A stretch of DNA of 64,000 nt from a virus (taxonomy: Duplodnaviria; Caudoviricetes): positions 1 to 64,000 of the IMG/VR virus record IMGVR_UViG_3300032225_002102; one strand, written 5' to 3'. The notes below the pieces were generated by a model. The model had not been told where the DNA came from. It made no database searches and saw only the letters and a list, made by a program, of their open reading frames with translations. Positions 1-26,853 of this stretch are shown piece by piece. The position numbers were made by a program, and so were the translations under genes. The first letter of the stretch is position 1, and each line of letters opens with the position of its first letter.

Positions 1-510
1 TTCTTCTGCAAACTTACTTGAAATTCTACCTAAATTAGAAGTAGCACTATCTTCTCCTGGAATAAAACTTCCATCATTAATCATATCATAGATGGAAGTA
101 AATGCAGTAGCAAATCCTATACCCAAGTTAGCACCTGTTACTTTTGTATCATTCCATAATCTATCCCAATATGATTGTGTTTGAGCAGCATATTGCTCCA
201 TTGAACCAGATTGTATGCCAGCTAAACTAACATCTACATCTTTATATTTACTTGTATCTATTCCTATAGTTATAGGAGCTGCAATATTAGGAGTATAATT
301 AACTCCTGTTGGAGTATTATTAATTCTATCTGCAATTTGATCTAATGTTTCTGATTCCGTTAAAGCAACATTTTCATTTACTCTTGTATATTGAGGAAGT
401 GTTGTTTTAAATTCTGTAAATATATTATTTAAATTACTTTCTGGTAATTTTGTTTCTGGTAGTACTGTAGCTAATGGTAAATCTTCTACATATTGATAAT
501 TCTCTTCCAT
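1..510 (-). CDS. N-terminus of a large ejected/cargo protein (partial, runs off the window)
   Basis: Not in ORF track. ATG at 510-508 overlaps the stop of the upstream gene (TAATG). Open to position 1: MEENYQYVEDLPL...QYAAQTQSYWDRLWND...GANLGIGFATAF. Position after two cargo genes matches the giant ejection-protein slot of crAss-like phages. Confidence 0.7.
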   Translation of the reverse strand, partial: MEENYQYVEDLPLATVLPETKLPESNLNNIFTEFKTTLPQYTRVNENVALTESETLDQIADRINNTPTGVNYTPNIAAPITIGIDTSKYKDVDVSLAGIQSGSMEQYAAQTQSYWDRLWNDTKVTGANLGIGFATAFTSIYDMINDGSFIPGEDSATSNLGRISSKFAEE

Positions 511-4110: not shown

Positions 4111-6846
4111 TCAAGTGTACTTCTTTTTGAAGAAAGAATTAATACTACCTCCTGCTTGTGCTACTACTTTTTCAGCAGCTTGTTTCTTTTTATTTTCATA
4201 AGCTTTTCTTAAAGCTTCTGCTTCTTCTGGTGTTTTAGCTTGTGCAATAGCATAATACAATTTCATATAATCTTTATCCATATCAAATCCTTGTCTCCCA
4301 CTAAGTAAATCTAAAGGATTATTGGTTTTCATCATTCCTGGTGTCATAGCAGCTAATGAGTTAAAATCATTCATACTCTTGATTTTTGAATTTCTCATTC
4401 TATCTAAATCACCTAAAGCACTTCCCATCATCTCATCTTTCTGTGCTTGTGCTTGTTGCATAGCTTGCATATACTGTTGATTAGCTGCTATATTCAACTG
4501 TTGTTCTTGATTGTATGCATTTACTCTTCCTGCTTCATTTTGAGCTGCTATTTGAGCATTTTTCTGTTGAATATCATTAAGTACATCAATTGTTTTCTTT
4601 TGTGTTTGAGAATCAATATTACTTACAAAAGCTTGTCCTGTTGGACTATTAGTATTTATATTTTGAGTTGCTAATCTTCTTTGATTATATAGTTCCTGAA
4701 CAATAGGTAAAGGATCTAGCATTGGTGTTTCAGCATATTTTAAATTTATACTAGGTCTATATTGTGATGCTAATGGTTCACTCGCTTTCATCAAGTTATA
4801 CATAGGAGCTAGATTACTTTGTCTGTTATTAAAACTATATTCTGCTTTCTTACCATATTTATCTAGAAACTGTTGAAACTTAGATTTCTTTTTTGCTTCT
4901 TCATTTGATACAGGAGTATCTCCATAAGTTATTTTTAATCCTAAGTTATCTAATCCAAATCTATTTGCATAATTTCCTAAATCTAACAATTGATCAGAAC
5001 TTCTACCAGCAAACATTTGTTGAGTAAAGTTTCCTATAGGAGAAGTTTTCCCCATATCAAATTGTTGTTCTGTAGAATTTCCAATTGAAGGGAGTAATTT
5101 AGTTCTGTAATCATTAGTTCCATAGCGTTTCATATTAGTTTCAGCACCAATATTCATATCGTAATTAGCATCTAATCTTGGATTAAAACCAATAGATTTA
5201 AACTTAGGTGCTACATACCCAGCTTGTTGCATATAGTTATCTCCACCATGTTGTTTAAAGAATCTTTTACCAACTCCAATATTAGTTCTATCAAAAGCAT
5301 ATAAATTAGGATTTTCTGATTCTACATTATTATACGTAGGTCTTTTTATGTTGATTACTCTTTCCTCTTCTGGTATATAATAATTACCTAAATCCATTAA
5401 AGGAATTTCAAATTGATAATTATTATTTACCATTTCAGGTATTTCAGTTGGTACTGGTGGTGGTTGTAATATAAATGGTTTTTCTTTTTCAGCTAATGCT
5501 GTTTTTGTTTTTTTATCTGGTAATTTTATTTTAGGTTTATCTTGATTTGTTGGAGTTGTTTGTTTCTTTACAATTTTAAAATTCTTACCTCCATCAGTAC
5601 TTAACCATTCATTTCCATCAGAACCTATATATCTACCTTTTTCAGTAGAAAGTTCTTTCATTTCTATAGGTTTACCTGTACTACCTCCTCTAATTATAGG
5701 AGAATCAGATTTATTTTCTTGAGATAAATCTGAATATTCAATGTTTCTAGGATAACCAAAAAAAACATCTGAAAATACAATACCAGATTCTTTTTTAGGT
5801 ACTGCTCTACTGTTTATATAATCAAAATTATCTGGAGTTAATCTATTTAAATTTTTTGTTTTAACATCTAACTCTTTTATTGCATCTTTATAATCTTTAA
5901 GTTTTAATTGTAAATTAGGATCATTTGGATTTTTTAAAATAAAAGGTAATCCTAATCTAATATTATCTTTTAAACTATTAATTTTTCCTAATTCTTTATT
6001 ATAAAATTCTTTTACTCTAGCTATTTTTATTTGATTTTCTGAAGTTTGTTTTTCTTTACTTAATTTTTGTAATTGAAGATCTCTTTCTTTTTTTTGTTTA
6101 TTTAATGAAATTTCTACTTGTTGTAATTGTTTTGTTAAATCATTAACTCCTGTACCACTTTGTGCATAAACAGGTTCTTCAACTACAAAATCCCCATCAA
6201 ATTTATATTCTCCACCCTGATCCATATATTGTACATTACCTAAATTATCAGTACCTTTTATGTATTGAATATCAGGTCGTACACCTTTCATAGTTATACG
6301 ATTACTTGGGATTATATTATAGGGATTATTAGAAGATTCGTATCCTTCTAAATAACCAGTGTTATTTACATATCCACCATCTTTCATTTGTTGTGGTTTT
6401 TGCATTTGCATTTGTCCACCTTGCAACTGCTGAACAATTTGCTGCAATGCTTGTTGTTGTTCTTCAGGTTTCATTTGTTGAAACTGTTGAAAAATAACAT
6501 TTGGATCTTCACCTATAGAACTCGCATACGCTTGTAATATCTGCTGAATCTTTTGAGGATTGATTCCTCCTTGTTGCATCATAGGTTGAACTTCTTGTTG
6601 TTCCATTAGTTCTTCCTGTGGTTCATTTTCAACTTCTTGTTCTCCTTGTTCTTGTTGTACTATTTGGATTGCTTGTTGAACAAATGCTTGCTGTTCTTCT
6701 GGAGTTAACTCCATAAACATCTGCATAACTTCTTCAGCAGTGTTAAATTCATCATCTTGCACTATATCTGCAAATGCTTGAAATAACTGCATTAGTTGTT
6801 CCTCTTGTCCTTCTGCTTGTCCACCTTCTTGATAATATATATTCAT
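4111..6846 (-). CDS. Modular virion cargo protein, 911 aa, with QxGG-delimited segments
   Basis: Two Gln-rich helical repeats, an IIPSNRITMKGV module, coiled-coil C-terminus; about 9 QxGG-like motifs; crAss-like cargo position. Confidence 0.65.
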   Translation of the reverse strand: MNIYYQEGGQAEGQEEQLMQLFQAFADIVQDDEFNTAEEVMQMFMELTPEEQQAFVQQAIQIVQQEQGEQEVENEPQEELMEQQEVQPMMQQGGINPQKIQQILQAYASSIGEDPNVIFQQFQQMKPEEQQQALQQIVQQLQGGQMQMQKPQQMKDGGYVNNTGYLEGYESSNNPYNIIPSNRITMKGVRPDIQYIKGTDNLGNVQYMDQGGEYKFDGDFVVEEPVYAQSGTGVNDLTKQLQQVEISLNKQKKERDLQLQKLSKEKQTSENQIKIARVKEFYNKELGKINSLKDNIRLGLPFILKNPNDPNLQLKLKDYKDAIKELDVKTKNLNRLTPDNFDYINSRAVPKKESGIVFSDVFFGYPRNIEYSDLSQENKSDSPIIRGGSTGKPIEMKELSTEKGRYIGSDGNEWLSTDGGKNFKIVKKQTTPTNQDKPKIKLPDKKTKTALAEKEKPFILQPPPVPTEIPEMVNNNYQFEIPLMDLGNYYIPEEERVINIKRPTYNNVESENPNLYAFDRTNIGVGKRFFKQHGGDNYMQQAGYVAPKFKSIGFNPRLDANYDMNIGAETNMKRYGTNDYRTKLLPSIGNSTEQQFDMGKTSPIGNFTQQMFAGRSSDQLLDLGNYANRFGLDNLGLKITYGDTPVSNEEAKKKSKFQQFLDKYGKKAEYSFNNRQSNLAPMYNLMKASEPLASQYRPSINLKYAETPMLDPLPIVQELYNQRRLATQNINTNSPTGQAFVSNIDSQTQKKTIDVLNDIQQKNAQIAAQNEAGRVNAYNQEQQLNIAANQQYMQAMQQAQAQKDEMMGSALGDLDRMRNSKIKSMNDFNSLAAMTPGMMKTNNPLDLLSGRQGFDMDKDYMKLYYAIAQAKTPEEAEALRKAYENKKKQAAEKVVAQAGGSINSFFKKKYT

Positions 6847-6899
6847 TTCATTATTATTTTACAAAAAAAGTAACCCCCTATTTCTAGGAGGTTTTCTAA

Positions 6900-7004
6900 T
6901 TACTTCATTTTCTTACCACCTGTTTGATACATAGTAGCAGATGGTTTTGCTGGCATAGGTTTTGCTGCAGGTTTTTTAACCATTGGTTTTTTTGTCATTT
7001 TCAT
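6900..7004 (-). CDS. 34-aa Lys/Pro/Met-rich basic peptide carrying YQTGG
   Basis: Not in ORF track. MKMTKKPMVKKPAAKPMPAKPSATMYQTGGKKMK*. Start coupled by TAATG to the orphan ferritin tail; hairpin follows near 6872-6892. Confidence 0.65.
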   Translation of the reverse strand: MKMTKKPMVKKPAAKPMPAKPSATMYQTGGKKMK

Positions 7005-7084
7005 TACTTCAAAAATTTAAGTTTATAAATTATTTTCTCTAACCCACTGATACTTTCTTGTAACATATTATCTATTTCATCATA
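7004..7084 (-). pseudogene. Orphan duplicate of the 3' end of the ferritin-like gene
   Basis: Translates YDEIDNMLQESISGLEKIIYKLKFLK*, versus YDEIDNKLQEFVGELDKIMYKLKFLK* at the end of 8060..8452. Confidence 0.8.
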
Positions 7085-8060
7085 AGTTGGAGCTCACCAA
7101 TTCTAAATCTATTTTACTAAAACATTCATACATACCTCCAAATTTAATTTTAGGTAAATATTTAAATTCTTTATGAGAATGTTGAAGTAAATGTTCTAAT
7201 TTACATATATTAAAACTCTCATCTGTTATTTCTTTTAATATTTTATAATTATAAGGCATAGTTGCTTTGTTTAGAAATCTATTTTTAATTTTTTTAAAAC
7301 TTTTGCCAATTTTATAAAATTCTTCTTCTTCATTCCAACATTTAATTATATATACTTTAAAAGAATCAAAGTTTTTAGATTGTAAACCTTGTTTTGTCCA
7401 TTGAGAATCTGACCAAGTATTAAAAATATTATCAAGAGATAATTGAGTTTTAATAATTCCACATTTTTTACATCCTACTCCACTTAAATGACTATCAGCA
7501 GTTTGTTCAAATATACCATGTTCTTTACATAATATTTTAACTTTTAAACGTGCTTTTACATATTTTACTAAAGAATAATCATATTTGTTTTTATGAATTA
7601 ATAAAGATTTATTAATAAAAGTTTCTGTATCATAATTATTTTTAATACTTACTGTTTCTTTACCACATAAAGTACAACCACTTCCTCTTAAATGTAAATC
7701 AGGTGTTTGAAAAAAAGTTATATTATGTTTATTACATTTAATTTTTACTTTGTTTTTACATCCATTATATTCTACTAAATCATAATTATATTTATCTTTA
7801 TGTATTTTTTTAGCATTTACAATAAAATTTAATAAACTAGTTCTTTGTTTAGTAATTGATGATTCTGTTCCACAAACTTTACAACCATAACCATATAAAT
7901 GATTTTCTGGAGTTTGATTAAATACACCATGTATTTTACAAATTATTTGAACTTTTTCTCCTGATTTTTTATAATCAACTTTTTCATAACTATATTTATC
8001 GTTATGGACTTTGATAGCTTTGCTAATAAACTTTTCTGTGTTACTTAATTTTGTACACAT
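7080..8060 (-). CDS. Free-standing homing endonuclease (3 zinc-ribbon repeats plus GIY-YIG/T5orf172-like domain)
   Basis: Three repeats KVxIxCxxHxxFxQTxxxHLxGxGCxxCG; C-terminal VYII...FYKIGKS...GGMYECF. Confidence 0.8.
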   Translation of the reverse strand: MCTKLSNTEKFISKAIKVHNDKYSYEKVDYKKSGEKVQIICKIHGVFNQTPENHLYGYGCKVCGTESSITKQRTSLLNFIVNAKKIHKDKYNYDLVEYNGCKNKVKIKCNKHNITFFQTPDLHLRGSGCTLCGKETVSIKNNYDTETFINKSLLIHKNKYDYSLVKYVKARLKVKILCKEHGIFEQTADSHLSGVGCKKCGIIKTQLSLDNIFNTWSDSQWTKQGLQSKNFDSFKVYIIKCWNEEEEFYKIGKSFKKIKNRFLNKATMPYNYKILKEITDESFNICKLEHLLQHSHKEFKYLPKIKFGGMYECFSKIDLELVSSNL

Positions 8061-8452
8061 TATTTAAGAAACTTCAATTTGTACATTATTTTATCTAACT
8101 CTCCAACAAATTCTTGAAGTTTATTATCAATTTCATCGTAATCACTACTTAACATAGAACGATAACTATTAATTTTGTTTATAACTTCTTTAATAGGAGT
8201 TATAGGTTCTTCTAAATTTTTAAATGAATAAGATTTAAAATCTTTTAAAATCATTTGTTCTTTACCTTGTACATATTCTATGAAAGTATCATAAAATCCA
8301 TCTGCAAGTTCATAAAATTCTTCAAAAGCTAAATGTTGAGAAAGAGATAAAGATTGTGTATGAAAAATCCTACCTTGTGCTAATATATGTAAAAAATAAC
8401 TTGCTAAATCAATATGATTTGGTTTAGTTTTTGGTTTGATTTCGATAGCCAT
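8060..8452 (-). CDS. Ferritin/Dps-like four-helix protein (DUF5856-like)
   Basis: IFHTQ..SQHLAFEEFYE...DTFIEYVQG and C-terminal IMYKLKFL, typical of phage ferritin-like proteins. Confidence 0.75.
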   Translation of the reverse strand: MAIEIKPKTKPNHIDLASYFLHILAQGRIFHTQSLSLSQHLAFEEFYELADGFYDTFIEYVQGKEQMILKDFKSYSFKNLEEPITPIKEVINKINSYRSMLSSDYDEIDNKLQEFVGELDKIMYKLKFLK

Positions 8453-8532
8453 TGTTAAAACAATTAAATTTGCAACAAAAGAAACAAATAATATTTGAAA
8501 TTACAAAAATTAATATTTAATATTAAATTTAT

Positions 8533-8563
8533 TTTGTAGTTACTACATTTGTTACTACATTTG
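8533..8563 (+). promoter_or_regulatory. Bacteroidota promoter overlapped by a palindrome and tandem repeat
   Basis: TTTG(8533-36)-N19-TACATTTG(8556-63); GTTACTACATTT x2; palindrome TGTAGT-T-ACTACA 8535-8547. Confidence 0.7.
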
Positions 8564-8587
8564 TATTATAAATAAAACAATAATAAA

Positions 8588-8860
8588 ATGTATAAAAGAG
8601 AATTTCCAACTGATCTTGCTACTATCATTAAATTAGGAGATAGTAATTTTTCTACTTATGAACATGATTTAGAACTTATTATGTGGGATACTATATTAAT
8701 AAAAGAAAAAGGTATTTATCACAAGTATGATTTAGAATCAGCTTTAAAATTTCCTTGTAAAGCTATTAGAGAAGATATAGAAGATTATATGTGTTTAAAA
8801 ATATATAACGATAAACAAATTTTAGATAAATATAATGAAAACAGAAATATTAAGAATTAG
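8588..8860 (+). CDS. Hypothetical protein
   Basis: First ORF after the promoter, A-rich leader. Confidence 0.6.
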   Translation: MYKREFPTDLATIIKLGDSNFSTYEHDLELIMWDTILIKEKGIYHKYDLESALKFPCKAIREDIEDYMCLKIYNDKQILDKYNENRNIKN

Positions 8861-8960
8861 AATTGATTATGAATTAAAACAAAGAGTTAAAGAAAAAATT
8901 ACAGAAGGTAAAATCTCTGAATATATTAGGAATTTAATTTTAAATAATTTAAATAAATAA
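8835..8960 (+). CDS. 41-aa ribbon-helix-helix-like DNA-binding protein
   Basis: Not in ORF track. MKTEILRIRIDYELKQRVKEKITEGKISEYIRNLILNNLNK*: alternating beta strand, helix, G-x-x-SEYIR helix. Confidence 0.65.
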   Translation: MKTEILRIRIDYELKQRVKEKITEGKISEYIRNLILNNLNK

Positions 8961-8964
8961 CAAA

Positions 8965-9309
8965 ATGAAAAAGAAAAAAGTAACTCAAAAAGAAAATGAA
9001 TGGAAAGGTGTTTTGCAACAAGAAACTCCTATTTTTTATCAAGAATCAAAACCTAATATAACTCCTGATAGTTATAATCCTACAACTACAAAAGGAAGTG
9101 ATTTTGATATAGATAAAAAAAATATCAATGTAGGTGTAAATAAAGATTGGAATAAGATTACTCCTGTTAAAAATAAAAGAGTTTGTTTTTTTAATACTTT
9201 TTCAACATATTGGCACTTAATCCCTTCTGTTGCCGTACATTTAACTTTTAAAGAAATAGAAATAAATTGGTTATGTTTTGCAGTTTTAATTAGTTTTAAA
9301 AAAAATTAA
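8965..9309 (+). CDS. Hypothetical protein
   Basis: ORF in plus-strand island. Confidence 0.55.
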   Translation: MKKKKVTQKENEWKGVLQQETPIFYQESKPNITPDSYNPTTTKGSDFDIDKKNINVGVNKDWNKITPVKNKRVCFFNTFSTYWHLIPSVAVHLTFKEIEINWLCFAVLISFKKN

Positions 9310-9483
9310 AATCATGTTAGGTAAAGAAGAAATTAAACAAAGATTAAATCGTACAATCGAATTAATGTTAGATACTATAACTGAAAAAATAAATGAAGAA
9401 TGTAACACTAACATACGGAAATAAAAATTGGTTTAGTTATCAAAACCTTTTGAAATATTATACTTATGTAGAAAGAACTTATT

Positions 9484-9693
9484 ATGCAGATTGAATTTAA
9501 AATAACAGTAGATTCTACTGAACAGATTGAACTACTTCCTTATACTAATGCAATAGAAAGAGATTCTTTTCTTTTTGAATTATTTAATAATTTTAAAAGA
9601 AAATGGAAGTATGAAGAAAAAGATCCTACATTAGAAGAAGTAATGGAAGAAATATTTGAGTTAAAAAATAAATATAAAGTTATTATTGAATAA
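9484..9693 (+). CDS. Hypothetical protein
   Basis: Last ORF of plus-strand island. Confidence 0.55.
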   Translation: MQIEFKITVDSTEQIELLPYTNAIERDSFLFELFNNFKRKWKYEEKDPTLEEVMEEIFELKNKYKVIIE

Positions 9694-9748
9694 ACCTAAT
9701 CGTTTAGGACGTATCGAGAAGGAAAGTTTAACTTCATGTATCATAGGT

Positions 9749-9955
9749 TTATAACATAAAATTATTTAAATAAGAAGATTCAACTATAGTATAAAGTCTA
9801 TTTTTATACTGTAGTTTTTTCTTTAATATATAATATCTTTTATCTTTAAATTCTATAAAATCTCCTACCTTCCAATGATTAAATTTAGAAGAAATTTGTT
9901 TAATTTCTTTTTTTAAAAACAAATAAGAAATTATATAGATTATAGTATATCTCAT
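9749..9955 (-). CDS. Small protein with N-terminal hydrophobic segment
   Basis: ATGA overlap with upstream holin-like gene. Confidence 0.45.
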   Translation of the reverse strand: MRYTIIYIISYLFLKKEIKQISSKFNHWKVGDFIEFKDKRYYILKKKLQYKNRLYTIVESSYLNNFML

Positions 9956-10194
9956 TTTTTTAAATCTTGAATTATTTTATTTTTATCAGCACTTCCTTGA
10001 CTGCTTCCTAAATAATAATTATATACATTTTCTACTTTAGATAATAATCCTCCTAATACAAGATATAGTAAATCAGTATCAACAGAAATAATCTTTGATT
10101 TCTTAAATATAATAATCATTATTGTAATAAAAAACATTATTATAGTAGAAATTGAAATAATTGATTTTATTGAGTTTTGAAATTTATCTGACAT
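9952..10194 (-). CDS. Holin-like membrane protein
   Basis: Two hydrophobic helices and C-terminal YYLGSSQGSADK motif seen in small phage holin-like proteins. Confidence 0.6.
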   Translation of the reverse strand: MSDKFQNSIKSIISISTIIMFFITIMIIIFKKSKIISVDTDLLYLVLGGLLSKVENVYNYYLGSSQGSADKNKIIQDLKK

Positions 10195-13100
10195 ATTTCT
10201 TTAATGGATTTTTAATTGCAACTATTTTATTTCCTCCTACTTGTTTCTTACTAAGATAAGTATTACTCCATAATCCTCTTTCTACAATCTTACCATCTTT
10301 ACGTTGATACATTGGTTTTCCATTATGTATAACGTTCTTACCTCCTGTTTGTTTTTGATTCATTTTTTGTAATTGCTTATCATAATAATCAGATTTTCTT
10401 TGTTGGAATCTACCCATGCTTCCATCTGTATTTCTAATATATTCTGAACCAATTACTCTTTCTGGATTATAAAATTCAGTATTTTCTGGTGCTTGATAGT
10501 TAATATCTGGGTACTGATAATTTACTTCTTGTTGTTGATAAGGAATTGATTCTATTTGAGATAAATTATTAATTTTATTTCTTTGTAAGATTTTTACTGG
10601 TTGTATTGGTTTTTTATAAACAAATTCATTACCTTTTTCTGCATATCCACCTATTCTTGGATCTTTAGGATTATTTAAATATATAGGAGGGTATTTTGAA
10701 TCATATTGATTTTTATTAAGATATGGTTTATCACTTATTATTTTTTGATTATTATTTTGATTTTTTATTGGAACTTGATTTTTTATTTGTTTTTGTAATT
10801 CTTGTAATTTAGTAGCTTGTTCAGGATTTTGTTGAATAAGATCGTTTATAATTGCTATAGCACCAACAGCATCTTTTGCTCCTAATTTTAAAGCTTCTGT
10901 TACAATTTCTGGTTTGTAAAGATTTTTAAGTAAATCATCAAAATTATTCCAAAAAGGTTTATGAACAGCTTTTAAATTTCTCCCAATAAAATTTACTGCT
11001 CCTGTTGTTTTACCTAAAGCTTTTTGAGCTTTTAAAGCAGCAGCTACAGCAGGTTGAAAAACATCTTTTGTTTTTTGTATTGTTTTTATACCTTTAGCTA
11101 ATTTTCCTATTTTTGAAATAGCACCTACTCCTAGTAAATTTGTAGGATCTAATACTAAATCAGTAGCCATTTTCAAATACGGATGTTCTTTTGCATCTAT
11201 ACCTATACCATCAGATGGATTTTCATATTTAGGAGGAGCTTTTCTAAGACCTGCACCATATAATGCTGCTTCTGTTGCATAGGTAGCAGCTTTTGCTGGA
11301 GCAGATAATACATCATCTATTTTTTCTAACCAACCTGCTTGAGCATATTCAATTTCTCCTCCTATTTGTTTTGCAAAATTACGTGCAAAATTTGCTTTCT
11401 TCCTCATCTCAGGAGTATATCTTCCTTCTGGAGCATTTAAAATCTTACGTGCAGCTTCTTGTACACTCATACCCATTCGAGTAGCTTGTGCTTTAAATGT
11501 ACCACGCTTTGAAGGATCTAATTGTATTCCAGTTTGAGCATACATTTCATTATTTTCAGATTTACTATCTTCTTGATTCTGAAATAAAAATTCATAAATA
11601 TCTTCTGGAGTTGGAATAGATTTTAATACATCTACGTTAGCAACAAATGAATTAGCTTGTCTTTCAAAGTTTAATGGTTTATCAATATTTTTATATTTAC
11701 TTACAAGTTTCTCTCTTGATTCTAATAGTTTATCCATTAGTTTAGCTGGAGACATAGAACTTAATGGACGTTTAATACTAAGATTTAATTGTTCTGCTAA
11801 TGCTAATGCTTCTTGTGGTTTAATCTTAATTTCTTCATCTGTTCTACCATAAGTATTATCAGATTGATTTCTATTTTCTTGTGTAGCTGATAATACTGAA
11901 TTTACATTATATGTACCTTGTCCACCTTGTCCTTCAGGAACATATAAAGATTCTCCATCAATAATTAATTCATTATCATCGTGGGAAGGTATGTTAGTTA
12001 TTTTACCTACTTTACCCTGATTATCTTTTACATATTCACCATTTTCTACTATGGTAAGGTTATTAGATTCTCCACCTTGTTGTTTCATATCATATACTGT
12101 TTCTGCTCCTACAGCTCCTAATAAACCTCTATTACCATATAATTCTTTAGGTTTCATTTTTTTATACAATTTATCTACAGGTAAATAAGTAGTTCTACCA
12201 TATTTAGTAGCAAGATTACCATTATCTAAATATTTATTAGTTCTTTTAAATGAACCTAATATTTTAGGATTTTCAATAGCATAAGGTACAGCTAAACTAG
12301 TTCCATTAATCAATGCACTTTCATAATCTCCTTCTCGTAAAGCATCAGCAGCTTGATATAAATCAACTCCTGCTCCAATCATATTACTAATTTTTCCAAT
12401 TGCTTGTGCTTGAGGTAAAGGTATAAAATTACCTAAAGAACCAATATCTGTTGCTATATCTAATCCTTTTACAATAGGGGTAAATACCTTTCTTTTAAAT
12501 TCATCTTGTGCTTGTTGTCTTTCAAAAATATTTCTTACATTAGGATTTAAAGGTTTGTATTCTGAAAGAAAAGTTTGATTTTTTTCAAATTCTTGTTTTT
12601 GTTTTTCTTGATTTAATAAATCTTGTTGTAATTTAGAATAAGATTGATTTGTTTCTCTATCTAATCCTTTGTTTTTCGATCCAACCAAGTTGTTATTATC
12701 AAATAAAATAAATTTATTTTTGTTAGAATAACCATTATTAATATTATCTTTTCCATTTTGAGCATATTCAATTTCTCCTCCTGTTTGATATTTATATCTA
12801 GCTTTATTTGGTATAATATTATAAGGTTGCATTTTTCCGTATTCAGTAATAGGTGCTACTTGATCTCTAAATTTTTTAACTTTATCAACATATTCAAAAG
12901 AAAACTTTGATGGATCTGGATTATCTTTTCCTAATAAATAAAAATCAACTAAATCCTTATTGTTTACTTTACCAGGACTATTCCATTTCAAAACTGTTAA
13001 ATCAAGTTGTTGTTCTTTTGTTAAGTTTGGAAAAGATTTTTTTATAGAATTTAAATCTTCTGCTAATTTACCCATACCTGCTAATACCTCATTCTTTTTA

Positions 13101-15301
13101 GAAAGATGCCAAGTATTTTTATTTATTCCTAATAATTGAGTATTAGCAGGTAAATCTTTTTGTTTAAATACTCCTTTTGATGGAGTAGTTTCAGATACAG
13201 CAAATGGTTTTGGTTTATTATATTTAGTAGTATATAATTGATTAACTGCTTCATCTAATGTTATATTATTTGCAGCTGACAATTTTGCAGCTTCCATCTC
13301 AACAAGAGCTCTTCCTGGAAAAGGAGCAAGATCTGGATTTACAGAATATTTTAAAGCATTACCTATTTTTTTACCTGTATTAAGAATAGCTTTTACAGGA
13401 GTAGAAATACCTGTATTATTTAAAGCTTCTTGTAAAATAATTTTAGATTTAGGAAGAATTGCTCCAGGAAGTTTAGCTCCCATTTTACTTTCTTTAGTAC
13501 CTATACCAATTAATAATCTAAATAATTCATCTGCTTCATCTGTATTTAAATTATATACATCTTTTATAGTTTGTTTATTTTTATCGTAAACATTCTCGTA
13601 AGAAGATATATTTTTATCTAATACTTTAAATTTATTAGTAGCTGGTAAATCTTTTATTTCTTCTTTTACACTATTAACAAATACATCTTTTTTAATATTT
13701 TTAAATTGACTAGGTCTTACTACACTAACAATTGCATCATCTCCTCCATAAAAATTCCCCATAATAGGATTATTATACATACCACTAGTAGCTCCACTTT
13801 CTAGCATGTAAGGTACAGTAAATTCTTCTTCTCCTACTTTTAATTTTCCTCTACCTGATATAGTTGCTGCATGATTTACTCTTTGATCAGAAAAATAACC
13901 AAGTTCTTGTGTAGGATGATTAAATTCTCCTTTACCCATTAAAACTCTATCTCCTATTTGTAAATCATTATAATCTAAAGGTATACCTAAAGATTTATCA
14001 AAAATTAATTCTCCATCATTAGATAATGTTTTAGATAACATATTCCACGCATTATGAGCATTATCTTCGTAATCATAAGCTTTTCCTGTTAAATTAGTGT
14101 AAAATTTATTTGATGCACTATTAGCTGATTTAGCACAAGGTGATCCAGGTAAACAATATTGTTCTTTTTGTAATCTAGCTGCTTTTTGTTGTTTAATATT
14201 ATCAAAATAATTTAAATCTTTTACTAAATGTAAAGGTAATACTTTATTAGGTAATCTTTGAGAAACTTCAGGTAAACCATATTCAACAGGATTTCTTCTT
14301 ATCTCATAATCTATAATATCAGAATAAGGTTCTAACTCTTTTCTTACATCATAATTTACATAAGTATCATCTAAATAATTATTTACTCTTGGATATAGTA
14401 CATCACCTTGTCCTACTACTTTATCTCCAATTAAAGCTTCTTTAGCTTGAGCACTATACTTATTAACATTATTCTTTAATATTTTACCTGCTTGTACACC
14501 TCTATTAAGAGCAAATTGAGTTAATTCTCTTGCATCAGTTAAGGGTCTTATTAAGTTATTTGGATTTAAATACTTAGATAAACCTGCACCTGGGAGACTT
14601 AATAAAGCATCTCCATATTCTCCTTGTGCTAGATCAACAGCAGTATTAGCAATAGCATTTCCAGCATTATAAACTTCTCCTACAACAGGTACAGGAGATA
14701 ATGCTAATCCTAATAGATTTGCTTTATCTTGTCTTGAATTAATTCTTTTATCTCTATCTACTTTATATCCTATATTTTTTACAGCTTTTGTAGTAGGAGT
14801 ACTATTACCTTGTTTTAATTGAGGTTGCTTTTCTTCAAACAATCTTTTTTGATTAGCTTGATTTATTCTATCTATTTCTAGCTTAGATAATCTTAGTTGA
14901 GGTACAGGTCTATCTGATTTGTAACCTCCTCCAGTTTGAGCATTATCAACATCTCCACCAGTTTGCCATAGTACTTTTCTACTCCAATGGTTTGCTGAAA
15001 ATATATCATCTTTAGTTAATTGTCCACTACCATTTCTAATACCTCCACTACGTGATAAATAATTTTTTCTTCTATCTTTATCGTGGTGTTGAGTATAATC
15101 TTCCATACCCCTCAAACCAAATTTAACAAGTTTATACTTATCTCCTTTTTTAGCAACTACCATTTTCTTGTGGGAATCACCTTGTGGAGCATTTTTAACT
15201 TGGTTAACTCCAGAGAATCCAAGTTTCTTATATCTATCTGGTAATCCACCAGATTGCATATAATCCTCATTTTCATATATATATTTTTTCAACTTATTCA
15301 T
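10184..15301 (-). CDS. 1705-aa mosaic virion protein (papain-like amidase, lysozyme-like, TG-like and small basic modules)
   Basis: CLPGSPCAKS..NAWNM..LQIGDRV..HAATI..MLES (papain/NlpC-P60-like); IGIGTKES..GVFKQ..KWNSPG (SLT-like); 11 QxGG/YAQxG motifs. Confidence 0.65.
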   Translation of the reverse strand: MNKLKKYIYENEDYMQSGGLPDRYKKLGFSGVNQVKNAPQGDSHKKMVVAKKGDKYKLVKFGLRGMEDYTQHHDKDRRKNYLSRSGGIRNGSGQLTKDDIFSANHWSRKVLWQTGGDVDNAQTGGGYKSDRPVPQLRLSKLEIDRINQANQKRLFEEKQPQLKQGNSTPTTKAVKNIGYKVDRDKRINSRQDKANLLGLALSPVPVVGEVYNAGNAIANTAVDLAQGEYGDALLSLPGAGLSKYLNPNNLIRPLTDARELTQFALNRGVQAGKILKNNVNKYSAQAKEALIGDKVVGQGDVLYPRVNNYLDDTYVNYDVRKELEPYSDIIDYEIRRNPVEYGLPEVSQRLPNKVLPLHLVKDLNYFDNIKQQKAARLQKEQYCLPGSPCAKSANSASNKFYTNLTGKAYDYEDNAHNAWNMLSKTLSNDGELIFDKSLGIPLDYNDLQIGDRVLMGKGEFNHPTQELGYFSDQRVNHAATISGRGKLKVGEEEFTVPYMLESGATSGMYNNPIMGNFYGGDDAIVSVVRPSQFKNIKKDVFVNSVKEEIKDLPATNKFKVLDKNISSYENVYDKNKQTIKDVYNLNTDEADELFRLLIGIGTKESKMGAKLPGAILPKSKIILQEALNNTGISTPVKAILNTGKKIGNALKYSVNPDLAPFPGRALVEMEAAKLSAANNITLDEAVNQLYTTKYNKPKPFAVSETTPSKGVFKQKDLPANTQLLGINKNTWHLSKKNEVLAGMGKLAEDLNSIKKSFPNLTKEQQLDLTVLKWNSPGKVNNKDLVDFYLLGKDNPDPSKFSFEYVDKVKKFRDQVAPITEYGKMQPYNIIPNKARYKYQTGGEIEYAQNGKDNINNGYSNKNKFILFDNNNLVGSKNKGLDRETNQSYSKLQQDLLNQEKQKQEFEKNQTFLSEYKPLNPNVRNIFERQQAQDEFKRKVFTPIVKGLDIATDIGSLGNFIPLPQAQAIGKISNMIGAGVDLYQAADALREGDYESALINGTSLAVPYAIENPKILGSFKRTNKYLDNGNLATKYGRTTYLPVDKLYKKMKPKELYGNRGLLGAVGAETVYDMKQQGGESNNLTIVENGEYVKDNQGKVGKITNIPSHDDNELIIDGESLYVPEGQGGQGTYNVNSVLSATQENRNQSDNTYGRTDEEIKIKPQEALALAEQLNLSIKRPLSSMSPAKLMDKLLESREKLVSKYKNIDKPLNFERQANSFVANVDVLKSIPTPEDIYEFLFQNQEDSKSENNEMYAQTGIQLDPSKRGTFKAQATRMGMSVQEAARKILNAPEGRYTPEMRKKANFARNFAKQIGGEIEYAQAGWLEKIDDVLSAPAKAATYATEAALYGAGLRKAPPKYENPSDGIGIDAKEHPYLKMATDLVLDPTNLLGVGAISKIGKLAKGIKTIQKTKDVFQPAVAAALKAQKALGKTTGAVNFIGRNLKAVHKPFWNNFDDLLKNLYKPEIVTEALKLGAKDAVGAIAIINDLIQQNPEQATKLQELQKQIKNQVPIKNQNNNQKIISDKPYLNKNQYDSKYPPIYLNNPKDPRIGGYAEKGNEFVYKKPIQPVKILQRNKINNLSQIESIPYQQQEVNYQYPDINYQAPENTEFYNPERVIGSEYIRNTDGSMGRFQQRKSDYYDKQLQKMNQKQTGGKNVIHNGKPMYQRKDGKIVERGLWSNTYLSKKQVGGNKIVAIKNPLKKYVR
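11339..11363. repeat. 25-bp exact repeat, second copy 12758-12782, encoding GGEIEYAQ
   Basis: TTGAGCATATTCAATTTCTCCTCCT at both sites, at module junctions. Confidence 0.85.
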
Positions 15302-15494
15302 TTATAATTGTATTTAAGTAAGAACAGAATTCGTAACATTCTGATTTCTCACAAGCTCTTAAAAACCAAATTAAATCTTCTTTCTTAGAATCTTTTATAA
15401 ATAACTTTACTTCACCTAAATTCTTGAACAAGTTTTTAGGATTTATAATTTCATTATACTTTTCTTCTAAATATATTGCTTCTATCTCGTTCAT
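15294..15494 (-). CDS. Small hypothetical protein, UVR-like tail
   Basis: Overlaps both neighbours; ACEKSECYEFC. Confidence 0.5.
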   Translation of the reverse strand: MNEIEAIYLEEKYNEIINPKNLFKNLGEVKLFIKDSKKEDLIWFLRACEKSECYEFCSYLNTIINE

Positions 15495-16927
15495 CCTAGT
15501 ACACTCCTTTCTTTAAATCTATTATTAGAATTAGGATTAAATTTATCTAAACTTAAATTAAATAAATCTTGTTCTTCTATTCTCTTGCGATTACTTTCTT
15601 GTGAACCTAACATAACTGCAGTTGCTCCAGTAGCATTAGATAAACCTCGTGCTTTAAAATCTTGAGCACTTCTACCTAAACCTAATAAAGGTTCTAATAA
15701 AGGAGCAGCTCCTGCTAAAGCAGTAGCAGCACCAGCAATATTAGATGAACCATTACTTTTTTGAGTAGTGTTAGGAGTTGTTAATTGATTAAAATTATTT
15801 TGTTGTCCCAACATTGTTTGATTATATGTACTATTTGAACTCATATCTAAAGGTTCAGATTGAGAACCATACATTGGTTTAGTATCATAAGTATCTGATG
15901 TAATATTCATTGCTTTATCTTCTGCTGTTTTTGGAGTAGAAAATGTTTCTCTTAAATTATTATTATCTGGATTAATATTTTTATTTTGTGTGTTTAAACC
16001 TGCTGTTTTAGATAGAGAATTTGAAGGAGAATAACTATTAATATTATTATTAGTAGTTCCCATACTACTATTTTCATTATTTTGTTTTTGGGTATTATCT
16101 GCCATATTAGATAACATATTACCTAATGTATTCCCTAAACCCATTTTTCCTTCTTTATCATAAGTTAAAATACCAGCTTGTGCATAGTTATAACCTCCTG
16201 TTTGTTTTATATAATCAGAGGTTTTCATATTATATGTTTCTGGTTGATTACTTGCTTTTCCTGTAAGATAATCTAAAGCTCCTTTTTCTCCTCTAAAATG
16301 CACTAGTTTTGCTAATTTATCAGTATCCATATTAAATCCTTTATTCTTTAATCTTTTTACTGCTGGAAGAAGTTCTTCGGGTAAATAATACTCATTATAG
16401 AATTTATCCTGTGCTTCTGGATTATTAAGAAATTCTTCTTTAGTTCTAACTCCAGTAAATGCTTTTATTTCATCTTGCCATCCTGTACCTGGTCTAGTTC
16501 CCCATAAAAACTGATATTTACCAGCAGCAGAACTATTAGGATTTACAGCTCTATAATCTCCACCAGATTCTTTTCTTACAATATCATCAGTAAAAGAACC
16601 ATAGTTCCCATTAGTTTTTTCTCTAGTATTATTTGTATTATTTGCATTAACATTTTTAAAATTATCTACTCTTGATCTGTATCTACTACTTTCTAAAACT
16701 TCTTTGAAATCTGGAGTAAACCAATCAGAAATTTCTTCAATATCTTCATCTTCTTTTTCTTCCTGTTCTATAATTTGACTTACTTTTTTAACTTCCTCAT
16801 TATCTATAAATTGAGAAAGATAATCATCATCTTCATAAAGAGATTCATCATCTGATTCTCCCTGATCTGTATATTGAGAAAGGTATTCGTTATCTTCGTA
16901 TATAGGGTCTAATTCAAAATTTTCCAT
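15491..16927 (-). CDS. Virion-associated lytic transglycosylase-domain protein
   Basis: IVRKESGGDYRAVN..SSAAGKYQF lysozyme-like motifs; acidic N-terminus; KQTGGYNYAQAG linker. Confidence 0.75.
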   Translation of the reverse strand: MENFELDPIYEDNEYLSQYTDQGESDDESLYEDDDYLSQFIDNEEVKKVSQIIEQEEKEDEDIEEISDWFTPDFKEVLESSRYRSRVDNFKNVNANNTNNTREKTNGNYGSFTDDIVRKESGGDYRAVNPNSSAAGKYQFLWGTRPGTGWQDEIKAFTGVRTKEEFLNNPEAQDKFYNEYYLPEELLPAVKRLKNKGFNMDTDKLAKLVHFRGEKGALDYLTGKASNQPETYNMKTSDYIKQTGGYNYAQAGILTYDKEGKMGLGNTLGNMLSNMADNTQKQNNENSSMGTTNNNINSYSPSNSLSKTAGLNTQNKNINPDNNNLRETFSTPKTAEDKAMNITSDTYDTKPMYGSQSEPLDMSSNSTYNQTMLGQQNNFNQLTTPNTTQKSNGSSNIAGAATALAGAAPLLEPLLGLGRSAQDFKARGLSNATGATAVMLGSQESNRKRIEEQDLFNLSLDKFNPNSNNRFKERSVLG

Positions 16928-22122: not shown

Positions 22123-22963
22123 TACTTGGTAAATTAAATATTTCTAATGATTGTGGGAGTTCTTCTGCATACTTTACCATCCTCTGAAATGTAGGAAGTT
22201 TTTGATTAAATAGAGCTTCTTGCATAGATTTTGTATGCTCTTGTTCTGCTTTTTGCATACGTTGAGCAAAATCTCCTTCCGCATTATAATAAAGTTGTAA
22301 AAAAATCTCGTATGTTAAATAATCTTCTATTGCTTTAATTACATATTGATCATCAGGTATCATTGGATAACCTTCTTCATCTTGTGCATAAGCATAATAT
22401 TGTAAATGTATTGTACCTTCTTCAAAGTTAAAGTACATTTTTTTATTATCAAAATTAAAATGATCTTTCTCTTTTGAATAAAGATTTTCACATTTTGTAT
22501 GACATCTATTTTTTTTAACTTTTTTATCTAATGATAACAAACTTCTTTCACAAAACTGTCTTTCAATTGGAGTTTCAGTTTGTTCAACATACATTTTTTG
22601 AGTAACATATTCTTTAGTACGTACTATCTCACATTTATCATAACAAATAGTATCTAAAATATTATCTGAATAAACGGTAATAGGTCTTGAGTTTAAATAA
22701 TATCTTACTTTTGAACCATTAGTATTACATTCATTACATTTATGTACAACCCAAAGTAAATGAAAATCTTCAGGTAATAAACATTGATAGTTTTCAATAT
22801 CTATTATCTCTTCTTTTTCAATTGATAAACCCATACCTAATCTATCAATCATCCATTTACTCCATGTAATTAAACTAACTTCATCAATTAATGAAGCTTC
22901 ATCTAAAGAGTATAATCTTGATTTTACTCTATTTACTATTTGGTCAATACTTATATAATTCAT
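22052..22963 (-). CDS. Tail tubular/ring protein (P22 gp4-like)
   Basis: YFNFEEGTIHLQY..DEEGYPMIPD..AIEDY; immediately upstream of muzzle. Confidence 0.7.
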   Translation of the reverse strand: MNYISIDQIVNRVKSRLYSLDEASLIDEVSLITWSKWMIDRLGMGLSIEKEEIIDIENYQCLLPEDFHLLWVVHKCNECNTNGSKVRYYLNSRPITVYSDNILDTICYDKCEIVRTKEYVTQKMYVEQTETPIERQFCERSLLSLDKKVKKNRCHTKCENLYSKEKDHFNFDNKKMYFNFEEGTIHLQYYAYAQDEEGYPMIPDDQYVIKAIEDYLTYEIFLQLYYNAEGDFAQRMQKAEQEHTKSMQEALFNQKLPTFQRMVKYAEELPQSLEIFNLPSNADRISSSDKRYINRHQPITRYW

Positions 22964-25893: not shown

Positions 25894-26853
25894 TTAATAC
25901 CATTCTCTAATCCAAAAATTTATTTGTTTTAAATTTTGTGGTAAATATACTTTATTCCATGCATATTTACCAACTTTCTCTAACATTTTTCCATTTTCTA
26001 AAATTAGATTATCATCTTGGGAATATAAAAACTTATAATCTTCAGTAAATCCATTCTGTTTTCTCATTCTTTGAATAACAGCACTAAATGTAGATTTAAG
26101 TGTTCCTATAAAATTAGAACTATAACTTGCTACAATCATTGCAACTAATCCTTGTTCAGCAGAATCTAAATCATTTACTTTATCTAAATAGTTTACATTA
26201 TATTTACTTTCTATTTCTTTAAAATAATTTCTATCAGAATCATCAGTTAAAATTAATAATTTTTTATTATCAAAATTATGTTCTAATACATTTATAAAAT
26301 CAGAAACTTGTATTTTTCTTGATACATTATGATCATTTAAAAAATCACCTCTCCTTATATGGATACAATTAAAACTTGGTAATCCTTTAAGAATATCTAA
26401 AGCTATTTTCTCATACTTTTTTTTAGGTTTAATAACATGTTGAATAAAGTTTTCTACTTTATATTTTTCATGTTTATCTAAACAAAATAGATAAGAATAA
26501 AACCCCAGCGTATTAGAATCTTTTGTACTAAATGTAGTGTAATCATTTAAGTTAATTATTTTATTTCTACCATTAATGAATTCTTCATCGGGAATTTGAT
26601 TCTTGTATATTATTGTATCGTGTAAATCATAAGGTAGAATACTTTCTGTATAAATATGTTGATTATGAACTATGTTATAATCTATATCATATAAATCAAA
26701 TAAAGTTAAATTCTTTTCAGAATTAAATATTTTACCAGAATGAATAAAATTTATATTTTGATTTGATAGTAAAGCTAAAATGAGTGCATTTTCAGCACTC
26801 ATTAAAGCGTTACCCATACCAACGTGACCATTCTGGTATAAATGATAATTCAT
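25894..26853 (-). CDS. O-fucosyltransferase-like GT-B enzyme
   Basis: GMGNALM, CIHIRRGDF, ILTDD, FIGTLKSTFS: the GDP-fucose-binding motifs of POFUT/FUT8/NodZ-type enzymes. Confidence 0.8.
   Translation of the reverse strand: MNYHLYQNGHVGMGNALMSAENALILALLSNQNINFIHSGKIFNSEKNLTLFDLYDIDYNIVHNQHIYTESILPYDLHDTIIYKNQIPDEEFINGRNKIINLNDYTTFSTKDSNTLGFYSYLFCLDKHEKYKVENFIQHVIKPKKKYEKIALDILKGLPSFNCIHIRRGDFLNDHNVSRKIQVSDFINVLEHNFDNKKLLILTDDSDRNYFKEIESKYNVNYLDKVNDLDSAEQGLVAMIVASYSSNFIGTLKSTFSAVIQRMRKQNGFTEDYKFLYSQDDNLILENGKMLEKVGKYAWNKVYLPQNLKQINFWIREWY

What the first reader, a model, noticed from the sequence alone, without database searches (positions are those of the whole stretch)
4111..16927. QxGG/YAQxG motif punctuates cargo proteins: candidate polyprotein or packaging signal
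Seen: more than 20 copies in four neighbouring proteins, for example YMQSGG, LWQTGG, KYQTGGEIEYAQNG, MKQQGG, AKQIGGEIEYAQAG, QKQTGG, KKQVGG (1705 aa); YYQEGG, MMQQGG, YAQSG, FKQHGG, VAQAGG (911 aa); IKQTGGYNYAQAG (478 aa); MYQTGG (34 aa). They fall at boundaries between unrelated modules, and I did not see them in capsid, portal or tail proteins. Known: adenovirus protease and ASFV pS273R cut virion precursors after GG motifs. Inference: a protease releases many small injected effectors from these polyproteins, or the motif targets proteins into the prohead.
Basis: partly seen in the sequence, partly recalled or inferred. Interest (0 to 1): 0.8.

Follow-up and report, generated by a model that had tools for sequence, protein, structure and literature searches.

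The report
Junction tag of crassvirus cargo proteins
A short Gln-x-Gly-Gly / Tyr-Ala-Gln-x-Gly peptide really does mark every joint and end of the swappable modules in the proteins this crAss-like phage probably injects. It is the local form of an undescribed tag found across crAss-like phages, and whether it is a docking handle or a cutting site is still open.

Summary
QxGG occurs 14 times in the four named proteins (3,128 aa), against about 1 expected from shuffles and 1 in the other 37,000 aa of this 129-kb crAss-like phage. With the YAQxG form there are 19-20 strict copies.

- **Conservation:** the copies are invariant in homologues that are otherwise 42-85% identical.
- **Position:** they sit exactly where modules are gained, lost, fused or split. 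They are the only low-confidence stretches between confidently folded modules.
- **Spread:** an HMMER scan of 1.84 billion proteins shows the same pattern order-wide. Each exchangeable unit is a leader tag plus a module. A longer core (KLxKY) recurs at protein N- and C-termini.
- **Proteases:** I found no adenain-type, prohead-type or zincin protease here. The only recognisable one is a retropepsin-like enzyme that looks exported, and four complete crassvirus genomes with tagged cargo lack that family.
- **Published gel data:** my re-analysis of the crAss001 gel mass spectra finds no full-length 91-kDa gp45, which keeps cleavage alive.

Best reading: an address-and-joint tag bound by a common virion partner (0.45). 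The main rival is a cleavage site (0.35). The scan has already found this tag in at least eight other crAss-like genomes.

The parts
15491..16927 (-). 478-aa cargo-class protein just downstream of the muzzle-like gene. It has an acidic N-terminus, a lytic-transglycosylase-like core (my reading of the sequence) and an N/S/T-rich tail.
   Evidence: ORF. The double tag is conserved in the orthologues of L004 and L005. No Pfam or PDB hit.
16166..16213 (-). Double tag of the 478-aa protein, residues 239-254 (xKQTGG then YAQAG).
15294..15494 (-). Conserved 66-aa ORF between the 478-aa gene and the mosaic gene. It carries no tag.
   Evidence: Present in L004 and L005. No family hit.
10184..15301 (-). 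1705-aa mosaic cargo protein. Its units are DUF5754 (20-116), a private 127-842 block (CHAP/lysozyme-like, as an ESM Atlas lead only), 852-1077, module A (1078-1259), module B (1260-1315) and a private 1325-1654 block.
15245..15289 (-). N-terminal leader of the 1705-aa protein, residues 5-19 (KKY core followed by YMQSGG).
   Evidence: The same peptide is internal in the 674-aa protein of relative L004.
14924..14974 (-). Double tag at residues 110-126, directly after the end of the DUF5754 unit.
   Evidence: The stand-alone DUF5754 protein of phage NCTB ends exactly where this tag starts.
12752..12796 (-). Double tag at residues 836-850 (QTGG, three residues, then YAQNG).
   Evidence: The 30-nt DNA repeat D4 is 97% identical to the copy at 11339-11368.
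12071..12091 (-). Tag at residues 1071-1077, in front of module A.
   Evidence: pLDDT below 50
11528..11545 (-). Tag at residues 1253-1258 (YAQTG), between module A and module B.
11333..11377 (-). Double tag at residues 1309-1323, after module B.
10340..10360 (-). Tag at residues 1648-1654.
10187..10252 (-). Last tag (1684-1690) plus the C-terminal half-tag (PLKKY core, 1697-1705).
6900..7004 (-). 34-aa basic Lys/Pro-rich peptide gene that ends in a tag (residues 24-30) plus four basic residues.
   Evidence: Conserved as a called 34-36-aa gene, with in-frame indels, in L004, L005 and L007.
4111..6846 (-). 911-aa cargo-class protein. It has helical modules, a hypervariable middle (about 232-430) and a conserved C-terminal long-helix region.
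6820..6840 (-). N-terminal tag of the 911-aa protein, residues 3-9.
   Evidence: Y4, Y5, Q6 and G8 are invariant in 14 homologues.
6565..6585 (-). Tag at residues 88-94. In distant homologues a deletion runs from this tag to the next xDGG (residues 155-158, window 6373-6384).
6154..6171 (-). Tag at residues 226-231 (VYAQSG), the last conserved residues before the hypervariable block.
   Evidence: Y227, A228, Q229 and G231 are invariant.
5212..5262 (-). Double tag at residues 529-545.
   Evidence: F529, F530, G534 and G535 are invariant.
4147..4167 (-). C-terminal tag at residues 894-900, followed by a conserved basic-aromatic tail.
   Evidence: Q897, G899, G900, N903 and F905 are invariant.

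Best explanation
The motif is this lineage's version of a leader/junction tag that crAss-like phages put in front of every exchangeable unit of their C1-class cargo proteins. These are the proteins encoded just after the muzzle gene and thought to be stored in the portal/tail channel and ejected first.

A unit is a tag plus a module. Units exist as separate small genes or are strung together in frame, so tags end up at N-termini, at joints and, as half-tags, at C-termini.

The tag is a flexible short linear motif. I infer that it is bound by one common virion partner (portal, tail rings or scaffold; the partner is not identified). Under that reading any module carrying the tag is loaded and ordered in the particle, and modules can be swapped, fused or split without losing delivery.

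- **Shown:** enrichment, confinement to cargo, protein-level conservation, unit architecture, flexible context and order-wide spread.
- **Inferred:** binding by a partner, and that the tag stays uncut.
For: - **Enrichment and confinement:**
- **Conservation:** tag residues are invariant while flanks diverge or are replaced. Gly codons are mixed GGA/GGT like the background, so selection acts on the protein.
- **Module exchange:** indels and swaps end in tags. In L004 an endonuclease-like ORF splits the mosaic gene exactly in front of a tag.
- **Module B:** among the best hits of an HMMER search that gave 1,180 in all, module B is 60-80% identical in about 100 proteins of 82-2293 aa, at any position. 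In nearly all of them it is preceded by x-x-x-G-G and followed by AK-x-x-GG.
- **Module A:** it is preceded by xQxGG, or by an N-terminal leader of the M-S-K-L-N-K-Y type even when nothing lies upstream. A pure spacer for cutting would not be needed there.
- **Termini:** stand-alone units end just before the place of the next tag. The same KLxKY core sits at 25 of 145 N-termini and 19 of 150 C-termini, against 0.5% of internal windows.
- **Structure:** tags are the only stretches with pLDDT below 50 between modules modelled above 90.
- **crAss001:** the equivalent AFGG tag opens the portal-bound domain (residues 425-552) and is ordered and contiguous in the cryo-EM model. Pfam crAss_CARG1 starts there.
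- **34-aa peptide:** cutting after GG would remove only four residues.
- **No suitable protease:**
Against: - No partner is identified and no binding has been tested.
- The giant RNA-polymerase-type cargo and the 801-aa protein are presumably packaged without the tag, so it is not a general address.
- Spacing between tandem copies varies from 0 to 3 residues, which is odd for one fixed epitope.
- A full-length 91-kDa gp45 is not detectable in the published crAss001 gel bands of 70 kDa and above, although all five virion proteins of 77-97 kDa checked are.
- The cryo-EM fragments of gp45 begin at or just after tags. Cutting would also explain that.
Confidence: 0.45

Rival explanations
1. The tags are cleavage sites. 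The cargo proteins are polyproteins cut during or after head assembly, or after ejection, into separate small effectors. The tag may also serve first as an address, as the T4 capsid-targeting sequence does.
For: - The signal is short, conserved and flexible, and sits at both ends and at every joint.
- Covalent continuity is dispensable: the gene is split in L004, and stand-alone units exist.
- No full-length gp45 appears in crAss001 gel bands of 70 kDa and above, while the portal protein, at the same copy number, gives 11 peaks against 2.4 by chance.
- The intactness of gp45 was never shown. Bayfield 2023 analysed a single unresolved gel band.
- The resolved gp45 pieces, 214-245 and 425-552, each fall between consecutive tags.
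- The pattern hydrophobic-x-Gln parallels the T4 gp21 site Leu/Ile-x-Glu (from memory).
Against: - No prohead-type, clan CE, ClpP-type or zincin protease was found in the genome.
- Capsid, portal and scaffold-like proteins lack the motif.
- AFGG at 425-428 of gp45 is continuous with the domain in the solved structure, so that site is not cut after GG.
- N-terminal leaders and C-terminal tails are themselves conserved.
- Cutting the 34-aa peptide after GG would release only four residues.
Confidence: 0.35
2. The tags are passive standard connectors: flexible linkers that persist because cassettes recombine at them. No partner and no protease reads them.
For: - Module gain and loss end inside tags.
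- Two junctions are 29/30 identical at the DNA level.
- Tags are predicted disordered.
Against: - Specific side chains (Tyr/Met, Gln, Gly-Gly) are invariant over 42-85% identical homologues. Across the best-scoring representatives of the HMMER search, the x-x-x-G-G and AK-x-x-GG flanks of module B recur in nearly every protein.
- Most copies differ at the DNA level, with mixed Gly codons.
- The tag is kept at N-termini where nothing is joined.
- All copies in one genome share one lineage-specific flavour, which points to a common reader.
Confidence: 0.12
3. A special case of cleavage: the phage's own retropepsin-like aspartic protease (26853-27320) cuts the tags between the hydrophobic residue and the residue before Gln, as in Gag-type polyprotein maturation.
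For: - It is the only Pfam-recognisable protease in the genome, above the gathering score for RVP and Asp_protease_2, with DTGA, flap and GSN/D motifs intact.
- The family is present in crAss001 and its relatives. It is found in 51 phage records, against 52 records with the gp45 CARG1 domain. The two lists share the same organism names, and the extra CARG1 record is a 75.8-kb Bacteroides phage record, PhiCrAssBcn25.
- Retropepsins favour a hydrophobic residue next to a hydrophobic residue, with Gln or Glu at P2' (from memory).
Against: - It has an N-terminal signal or anchor with an invariant Cys, so it is probably exported.
- The family is absent from four complete crassvirus genomes that carry tag-flanked module B (cr10_1, cr50_1, cr118_1, Rudgehvirus jaberico), while the crAss001 control is found.
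- In gut phages the gene lies in the replication module.
- The co-occurrence is what any two core genes of one family would show.
- Many tags have Lys before Gln.
Confidence: 0.05

Closest known systems
Cargo protein 1 (gp45) of Bacteroides phage crAss001 (Bayfield et al. 2023, PMC10172136; Pfam PF25725 crAss_CARG1)
   Same: - Gene position after the muzzle gene.
- Shares module B with the C1 proteins of gut crassviruses (47-77% identity over about 60-70 aa).
- gp45 carries the looser aromatic-x-x-GG tag at its N-terminus, at joints and near its C-terminus.
- One tag opens the portal-bound domain.
   Different: - No CARG1 hit in any of the four proteins, and hhalign finds nothing significant.
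- The role is spread over three large proteins and a peptide.
- The tag has a Gln-specific flavour.
- The paper does not mention the tag or any processing.
Capsid targeting sequence of the phage T4 internal proteins, removed by the gp21 prohead protease (from memory, not tested here)
   Same: A short leader is shared by otherwise unrelated packaged and ejected proteins. The site pattern is hydrophobic-x-acid/amide.
   Different: - The T4 leader is N-terminal only and is known to be cleaved.
- Here tags are also internal and C-terminal.
- No gp21-like protease was found, and cleavage is unknown.
Polyvalent proteins of phages and conjugative elements (Iyer et al. 2017, PMC5512222)
   Same: - Large delivered proteins built from many unrelated effector-type domains, including wall-attacking ones.
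- One module-A relative carries ART-PolyVal.
   Different: - That paper predicts processing by embedded zincin-like peptidases and does not mention glycine or linkers.
- This genome has no HExxH motif in any ORF.
Adenovirus protease and ASFV pS273R cutting virion precursors at GG-X
   Same: Gly-Gly-containing sites in virion-internal precursor proteins. Small basic peptides are among the substrates.
   Different: - No clan CE protease is found here.
- Gln occupies the position of the Leu/Ile/Met determinant.
- Half of the copies have only one Gly.
Cargo-loading peptides of encapsulins (from memory)
   Same: A short Gly-rich flexible peptide that docks diverse cargo inside an HK97-fold shell and stays uncut.
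   Different: The encapsulin peptide is usually a single C-terminal copy. No binding site is known here.

Membership tests
Crassvirales virion module | Crassvirus ring, capsid and muzzle-type proteins next to the cargo genes | tested here: met
   - CrAss_Ring_1, 1.1e-23 (22052-22963).
- CrAss_Ring_2, 9.1e-18.
- Crass_capsid, weak at 0.0068.
- The 1731-aa protein matches phrog_37948 at 6.9e-147.
crAss_CARG1 (gp45 portal-bound domain, PF25725) | Pfam domain hit above the gathering score | tested here: not met
   No hit at E <= 0.01 in the 911-, 1705- or 478-aa proteins, while gp45 scores 222 bits. hhalign of residues 150-240 of the 911-aa protein, and of module A, against CARG1 gives probability below 1%.
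C1-class crassvirus cargo (functional class) | Encoded after the muzzle gene and shares modules with the C1 proteins of cultured or classified crassviruses | tested here: met
   Synteny. Module B is shared with Dulem virus 41, cr108_1, cr128_1 and Rudgehvirus C1-position proteins.
C1-class crassvirus cargo (functional class) | Protein is present in virions and is ejected | not testable with these tools
   The phage is uncultured, and no proteome is held for it.
Virion polyprotein-processing system | A dedicated protease with access to the assembling head | tested here: inconclusive
   Pfam and PHROGs over about 130 ORFs find only an apparently exported retropepsin-like protein. A divergent or host enzyme cannot be excluded.
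Virion polyprotein-processing system | Candidate sites lie in exposed, flexible segments | tested here: met
   All tags fall in stretches with pLDDT below 50.
Virion polyprotein-processing system | Mature termini at the sites | not testable with these tools
   The only indirect evidence is that gp45 is not seen at full length in crAss001 gel bands 1-10. Bands 11-13 are cut off in the held file.
Adenain / pS273R type (clan CE) GG-X maturation | A clan CE cysteine protease is encoded | tested here: not met
   The Pfam scans show no Peptidase_C5, C48 or C57 family (and those).
T4-type capsid targeting sequence | The same leader at the N-terminus of unrelated packaged proteins | tested here: met
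   The KLxKY core is found in 25 of 145 N-termini against 0.5% background.
T4-type capsid targeting sequence | The leader is removed by a prohead protease (S77 or S78) | tested here: inconclusive
   No such family was detected, and removal cannot be tested.
Polyvalent proteins (Iyer et al. 2017) | Embedded zincin-like or other processing peptidase | tested here: not met
   No HExxH in any ORF of the genome, and no homologue of the Suoliviridae head-module peptidase.

The most novel reading that the evidence does not exclude
Crassviruses use an order-wide cargo code. One roughly 15-residue tag (GG, KLxKY core, xQxGG) would be both the address that loads first-out cargo into the portal/tail channel and the site where lineage-specific proteases cut the string into separate effectors. 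Candidate proteases are the retropepsin-like enzyme here and in Steigviridae, and the HExxH peptidase next to the portal gene in Suoliviridae. That would amount to polyprotein maturation of injected cargo in tailed phages.
Probability: 0.15. Interest if true: 0.9.

Novelty: new variant of a known kind. Interest (0 to 1): 0.6.

Why it matters
CrAss-like phages are the most abundant viruses of the human gut. How they load and eject several megadaltons of protein is unknown.

A universal tag on exchangeable cargo units would explain how these phages shuffle wall-cutting and counter-defence modules so freely. It would also give a direct experimental handle: tag a reporter and see whether it is packaged, or search existing virion mass-spectrometry data for termini at the tags. 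And it would offer a way to deliver chosen proteins with a phage.

The papers I searched and read do not mention the tag. The scan itself has now met it in at least nine genomes.

Tried and rejected
- **Chance or composition:** rejected by shuffles.
- **A DNA repeat rather than a protein motif:** rejected. Codons are mixed, and only two junctions are near-identical in DNA.
- **Close relatives in IMG/VR:** none were found for the 1705-aa protein or the protease.
- **Homology of the 911-aa protein, or of module A, to the gp45 CARG1 domain:** not supported.
- **Homology of the 801-aa protein to gp46 (C2):** not supported. It is 'C2' by position only.
- **Fold matches for modules A and B:** Foldseek best E 0.36, VIA-align best Z 4.5, generic helices only.
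- **PDB sequence searches of the putative wall-hydrolase parts:** nothing significant. The CHAP/lysozyme-like reading rests on an ESM Atlas lead of 0.88-0.91.
- **A wall-hydrolase-like Cys peptidase inside the 1705-aa protein as the processing enzyme:** rejected, because that block is private to this phage while the tags are not.
- **The retropepsin as the general tag protease:** unlikely.
- **Literature:** searches for crassvirus proteolysis or an aspartyl-protease function found nothing relevant.
- **Tool limits:** I therefore could not check whether the closest relatives keep the protease next to the fibre genes.

Full report
**What the window is.** The window is the first 64 kb of a single 129,291-bp contig with 25.7% G+C. 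It is a crAss-like phage. Pfam finds CrAss_Ring_1 (1.1e-23, 22052-22963), CrAss_Ring_2 (9.1e-18) and, weakly, Crass_capsid. The 1731-aa protein at 16927-22122 matches a virion-protein PHROG at 6.9e-147 and lies where gut crassviruses have the muzzle or 'stabilization' protein. Reading down the minus strand, the order after it is as follows.
- The 478-aa protein.
- A 66-aa ORF.
- The 1705-aa mosaic protein.
- A block of small plus-strand ORFs.
- A DUF5856 gene.
- A homing-endonuclease insert.
- The 34-aa peptide gene.
- The 911-aa protein.
- An 801-aa protein.
- The giant RNA-polymerase-type proteins, across the contig ends.

This is the place of cargo proteins C1 and C2 and of the virion RNA polymerase in crAss001.

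**The observation.** QxGG occurs 14 times in the four proteins (3,128 aa) and once in the remaining 37,008 aa of ORFs in the genome. Shuffling the four proteins gives 1.06 +/- 1.04. The [YF][AM]QxG form occurs 6 times against 1. Strict copies number 19-20. The consensus over 68 copies in this phage and three relatives is Tyr/Met/hydrophobic, then Ala/Lys/Tyr/Met, Gln, Thr/x, Gly, Gly. The Gly codons are mixed GGA/GGT as in the background. Only two junctions are near-identical in DNA, at 29 of 30 nt. The signal is therefore kept at the protein level.

**Conservation and anatomy.** Thirteen homologues of the 911-aa protein, 42-85% identical, keep the tag residues invariant: Y4 Y5 Q6 G8; Y227 A228 Q229 G231; F529 F530 G534 G535; Q897 G899 G900. 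The block after residue 231 is replaced beyond recognition. A deletion in the distant homologues runs from one tag exactly to the next. Three related contigs keep the gene order and carry the tag in the same gene families only.

The mosaic gene differs in every relative, and the differences end in tags.
- In L007 the DUF5754 unit is joined through one tag directly to module A.
- In L004 an endonuclease-like ORF splits the gene. The upstream product stops exactly where the tag follows in this window.
- The stand-alone DUF5754 protein of phage NCTB also ends there.
- The N-terminal leader of the 1705-aa protein occurs internally in L004.
- The C-terminus of the 1705-aa protein repeats the core of that leader.

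**Order-wide picture.** HMMER with residues 1060-1330 against 1.84 billion representatives gives 1,180 proteins at E <= 0.001.
- **Module B** is about 55 aa, basic, and a three-helix bundle in the model. It is 60-80% identical in about 100 proteins of 82-2293 aa, at any position. In nearly all of them it has x-x-x-G-G in front and AK-x-x-GG behind.
- **Module A** is preceded by xQxGG, or by an N-terminal leader of the M-S-K-L-N-K-Y type with or without QxGG.
- Stand-alone module-A proteins stop just before the place of the next tag.
- The KLxKY core is found at 25 of 145 N-termini and 19 of 150 C-termini, against 0.5% of internal windows.

The building block is therefore a leader tag plus a module. 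Long cargo proteins are in-frame strings of such blocks.

In the phage collection, module B is found only in crAss-like records. In Suoliviridae it is a 73-83-aa gene between the portal and capsid genes. crAss001 gp45 has the looser aromatic-x-x-GG form at residues 21, 210, 265, 333, 374, 428, 563 and 822. Pfam crAss_CARG1 begins at residue 424, which is at the AFGG tag.

**Structure.**
- With 14 sequences, the 911-aa protein models poorly (mean pLDDT 50.6). Even so, all tags fall in stretches below 50 between helical modules.
- With a 30-sequence alignment, residues 1060-1330 model well (mean pLDDT 82). Modules A and B mostly score above 90. The only internal stretches below 50 are the two tags at model residues 13-18 and 193-198, and the third tag starts the disordered end at 255.
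- No solved fold matches.

**Protease hunt.** Pfam and PHROGs over about 130 ORFs show no prohead, clan CE, ClpP-type or zincin protease, and no ORF has an HExxH motif.
- The one protease is a retropepsin-like protein at 26853-27320. It scores 27.5 bits for RVP and 25.7 bits for Asp_protease_2, both above the cut-offs. The DTGA site, the flap and the GSN/D motif are intact.
- Ten homologues share an N-terminal hydrophobic leader with an invariant Cys, so export is likely.
- The family is the annotated but unstudied 'aspartyl protease' of crAss001 and its relatives, where it lies between the dUTPase and DNA-polymerase genes.
- It is found in the same set of records as the CARG1 domain, 51 against 52. 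That is expected for two core genes of one family.
- It is absent from four complete Suoliviridae and Intestiviridae genomes that carry tag-flanked module B, while the crAss001 control is found.

**Published experiments.** Bayfield et al. (PMC10172136) report no proteolysis. Their mass spectrometry used one unresolved gel band, so the size of gp45 in virions is unknown. Their resolved gp45 pieces, 214-245 and 425-552, each lie between consecutive tags. The second piece includes AFGG, so that site is not cut after GG.

Shkoporov et al. (PMC6235969) deposited MALDI peak lists for their gel bands, of which bands 1-10 are held. My peptide-mass fingerprint gives these assignments.

| Bands | Proteins assigned |
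|---|---|
| 3 | gp47 and gp50 |
| 4 | gp49 and gp44 |
| 5-9 | gp20, gp26, gp22, gp25 and gp23 (77-97 kDa) |

The proteins in bands 5-9 give 11-25 matched peaks against about 2 by chance. gp45 (90.8 kDa, 12 copies by cryo-EM) stays at chance in every band. Either gp45 is not full length in virions, or it recovers poorly; it is basic, with pI 9.3.

**Weighing.**
- A passive linker does not explain invariant side chains, tags at N-termini with nothing upstream, or one tag flavour per genome.
- A docking or ordering handle explains those points, the ordered AFGG in the solved structure, the conserved tails and the 34-aa peptide. It has no identified partner.
- Cleavage explains the missing 91-kDa band and the fragment boundaries. 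It lacks an enzyme, and it is contradicted at one site for cutting after GG.

I put the uncut address-and-joint tag at 0.45, cleavage at 0.35 (of which the retropepsin is 0.05 at most), and the passive connector at 0.12.

**Relation to earlier notes of this scan.** At least eight other crAss-like genomes gave the same kind of finding, and all left docking versus cutting open. New here:
- the Gln-specific variant in a 129-kb low-GC lineage;
- the leader-plus-module rule from the billion-protein search;
- the gel re-analysis;
- the test that removes the retropepsin as a general tag protease.

Noticed in passing
window 26853-27320 (-): Retropepsin-like aspartic protease of 149-155 aa, sitting inside the fibre/glycosylation cassette. 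It has an N-terminal leader and an invariant Cys. It is the only recognisable protease in the genome, and no PHROG family matches it.
   Followed up: yes
genome 112212-122885 (L009 13-10686, -): The 3557-aa giant virion-type protein ends in a NADAR domain (PF08719, 1.4e-11, residues 3269-3392). This may be a packaged counter-defence module.
   Followed up: no
L018 1152-2450 (cr10_1), L019 1164-2459 (cr50_1): Two Suoliviridae, cr10_1 and cr50_1, encode a 432-aa 'peptidase' between the portal gene and a stand-alone 73-75-aa module-B gene, ahead of the capsid gene. The cr10_1 protein has an HExxH motif. cr118_1 has no such ORF between its portal and module-B genes. The position is that of a head-maturation protease. 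This window's genome has no homologue.
   Followed up: partly
L004 3989-4676: In a relative that is 50% identical in the 911-aa protein, a 209-aa endonuclease-like ORF splits the mosaic cargo gene exactly in front of a tag. Both halves stay open.
   Followed up: partly
window 1-510 (-) and genome 122887-129291: The ORF that starts at 510 runs off the contig start. Its N-terminus matches that of the roughly 2000-aa proteins of relatives. The contig is therefore broken inside this gene, and the 2086-aa ORF at the other end is probably its continuation (a circularly permuted record).
   Followed up: no
window 11339-11368, 12758-12787, 14936-14965: A 30-nt direct repeat family that encodes the double tags. 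Two copies are 97% identical, a trace of or substrate for recent recombination between junctions.
   Followed up: partly
window 11378-11527 (module B, residues 1259-1308 of the 1705-aa protein): A very widely spread, 60-80% conserved basic three-helix module. It is annotated 'transcriptional regulator' where it stands alone and may be a DNA-binding unit of the cargo. It is not in Pfam.
   Followed up: partly
PMC6235969, supplementary file figure_3a_MS_spectra: gp45 and gp46 of crAss001 are not detectable in gel bands 1-10 by peptide-mass fingerprint. Bands 1-2 (above 300 kDa) contain gp44 plus gp34.
   Followed up: yes
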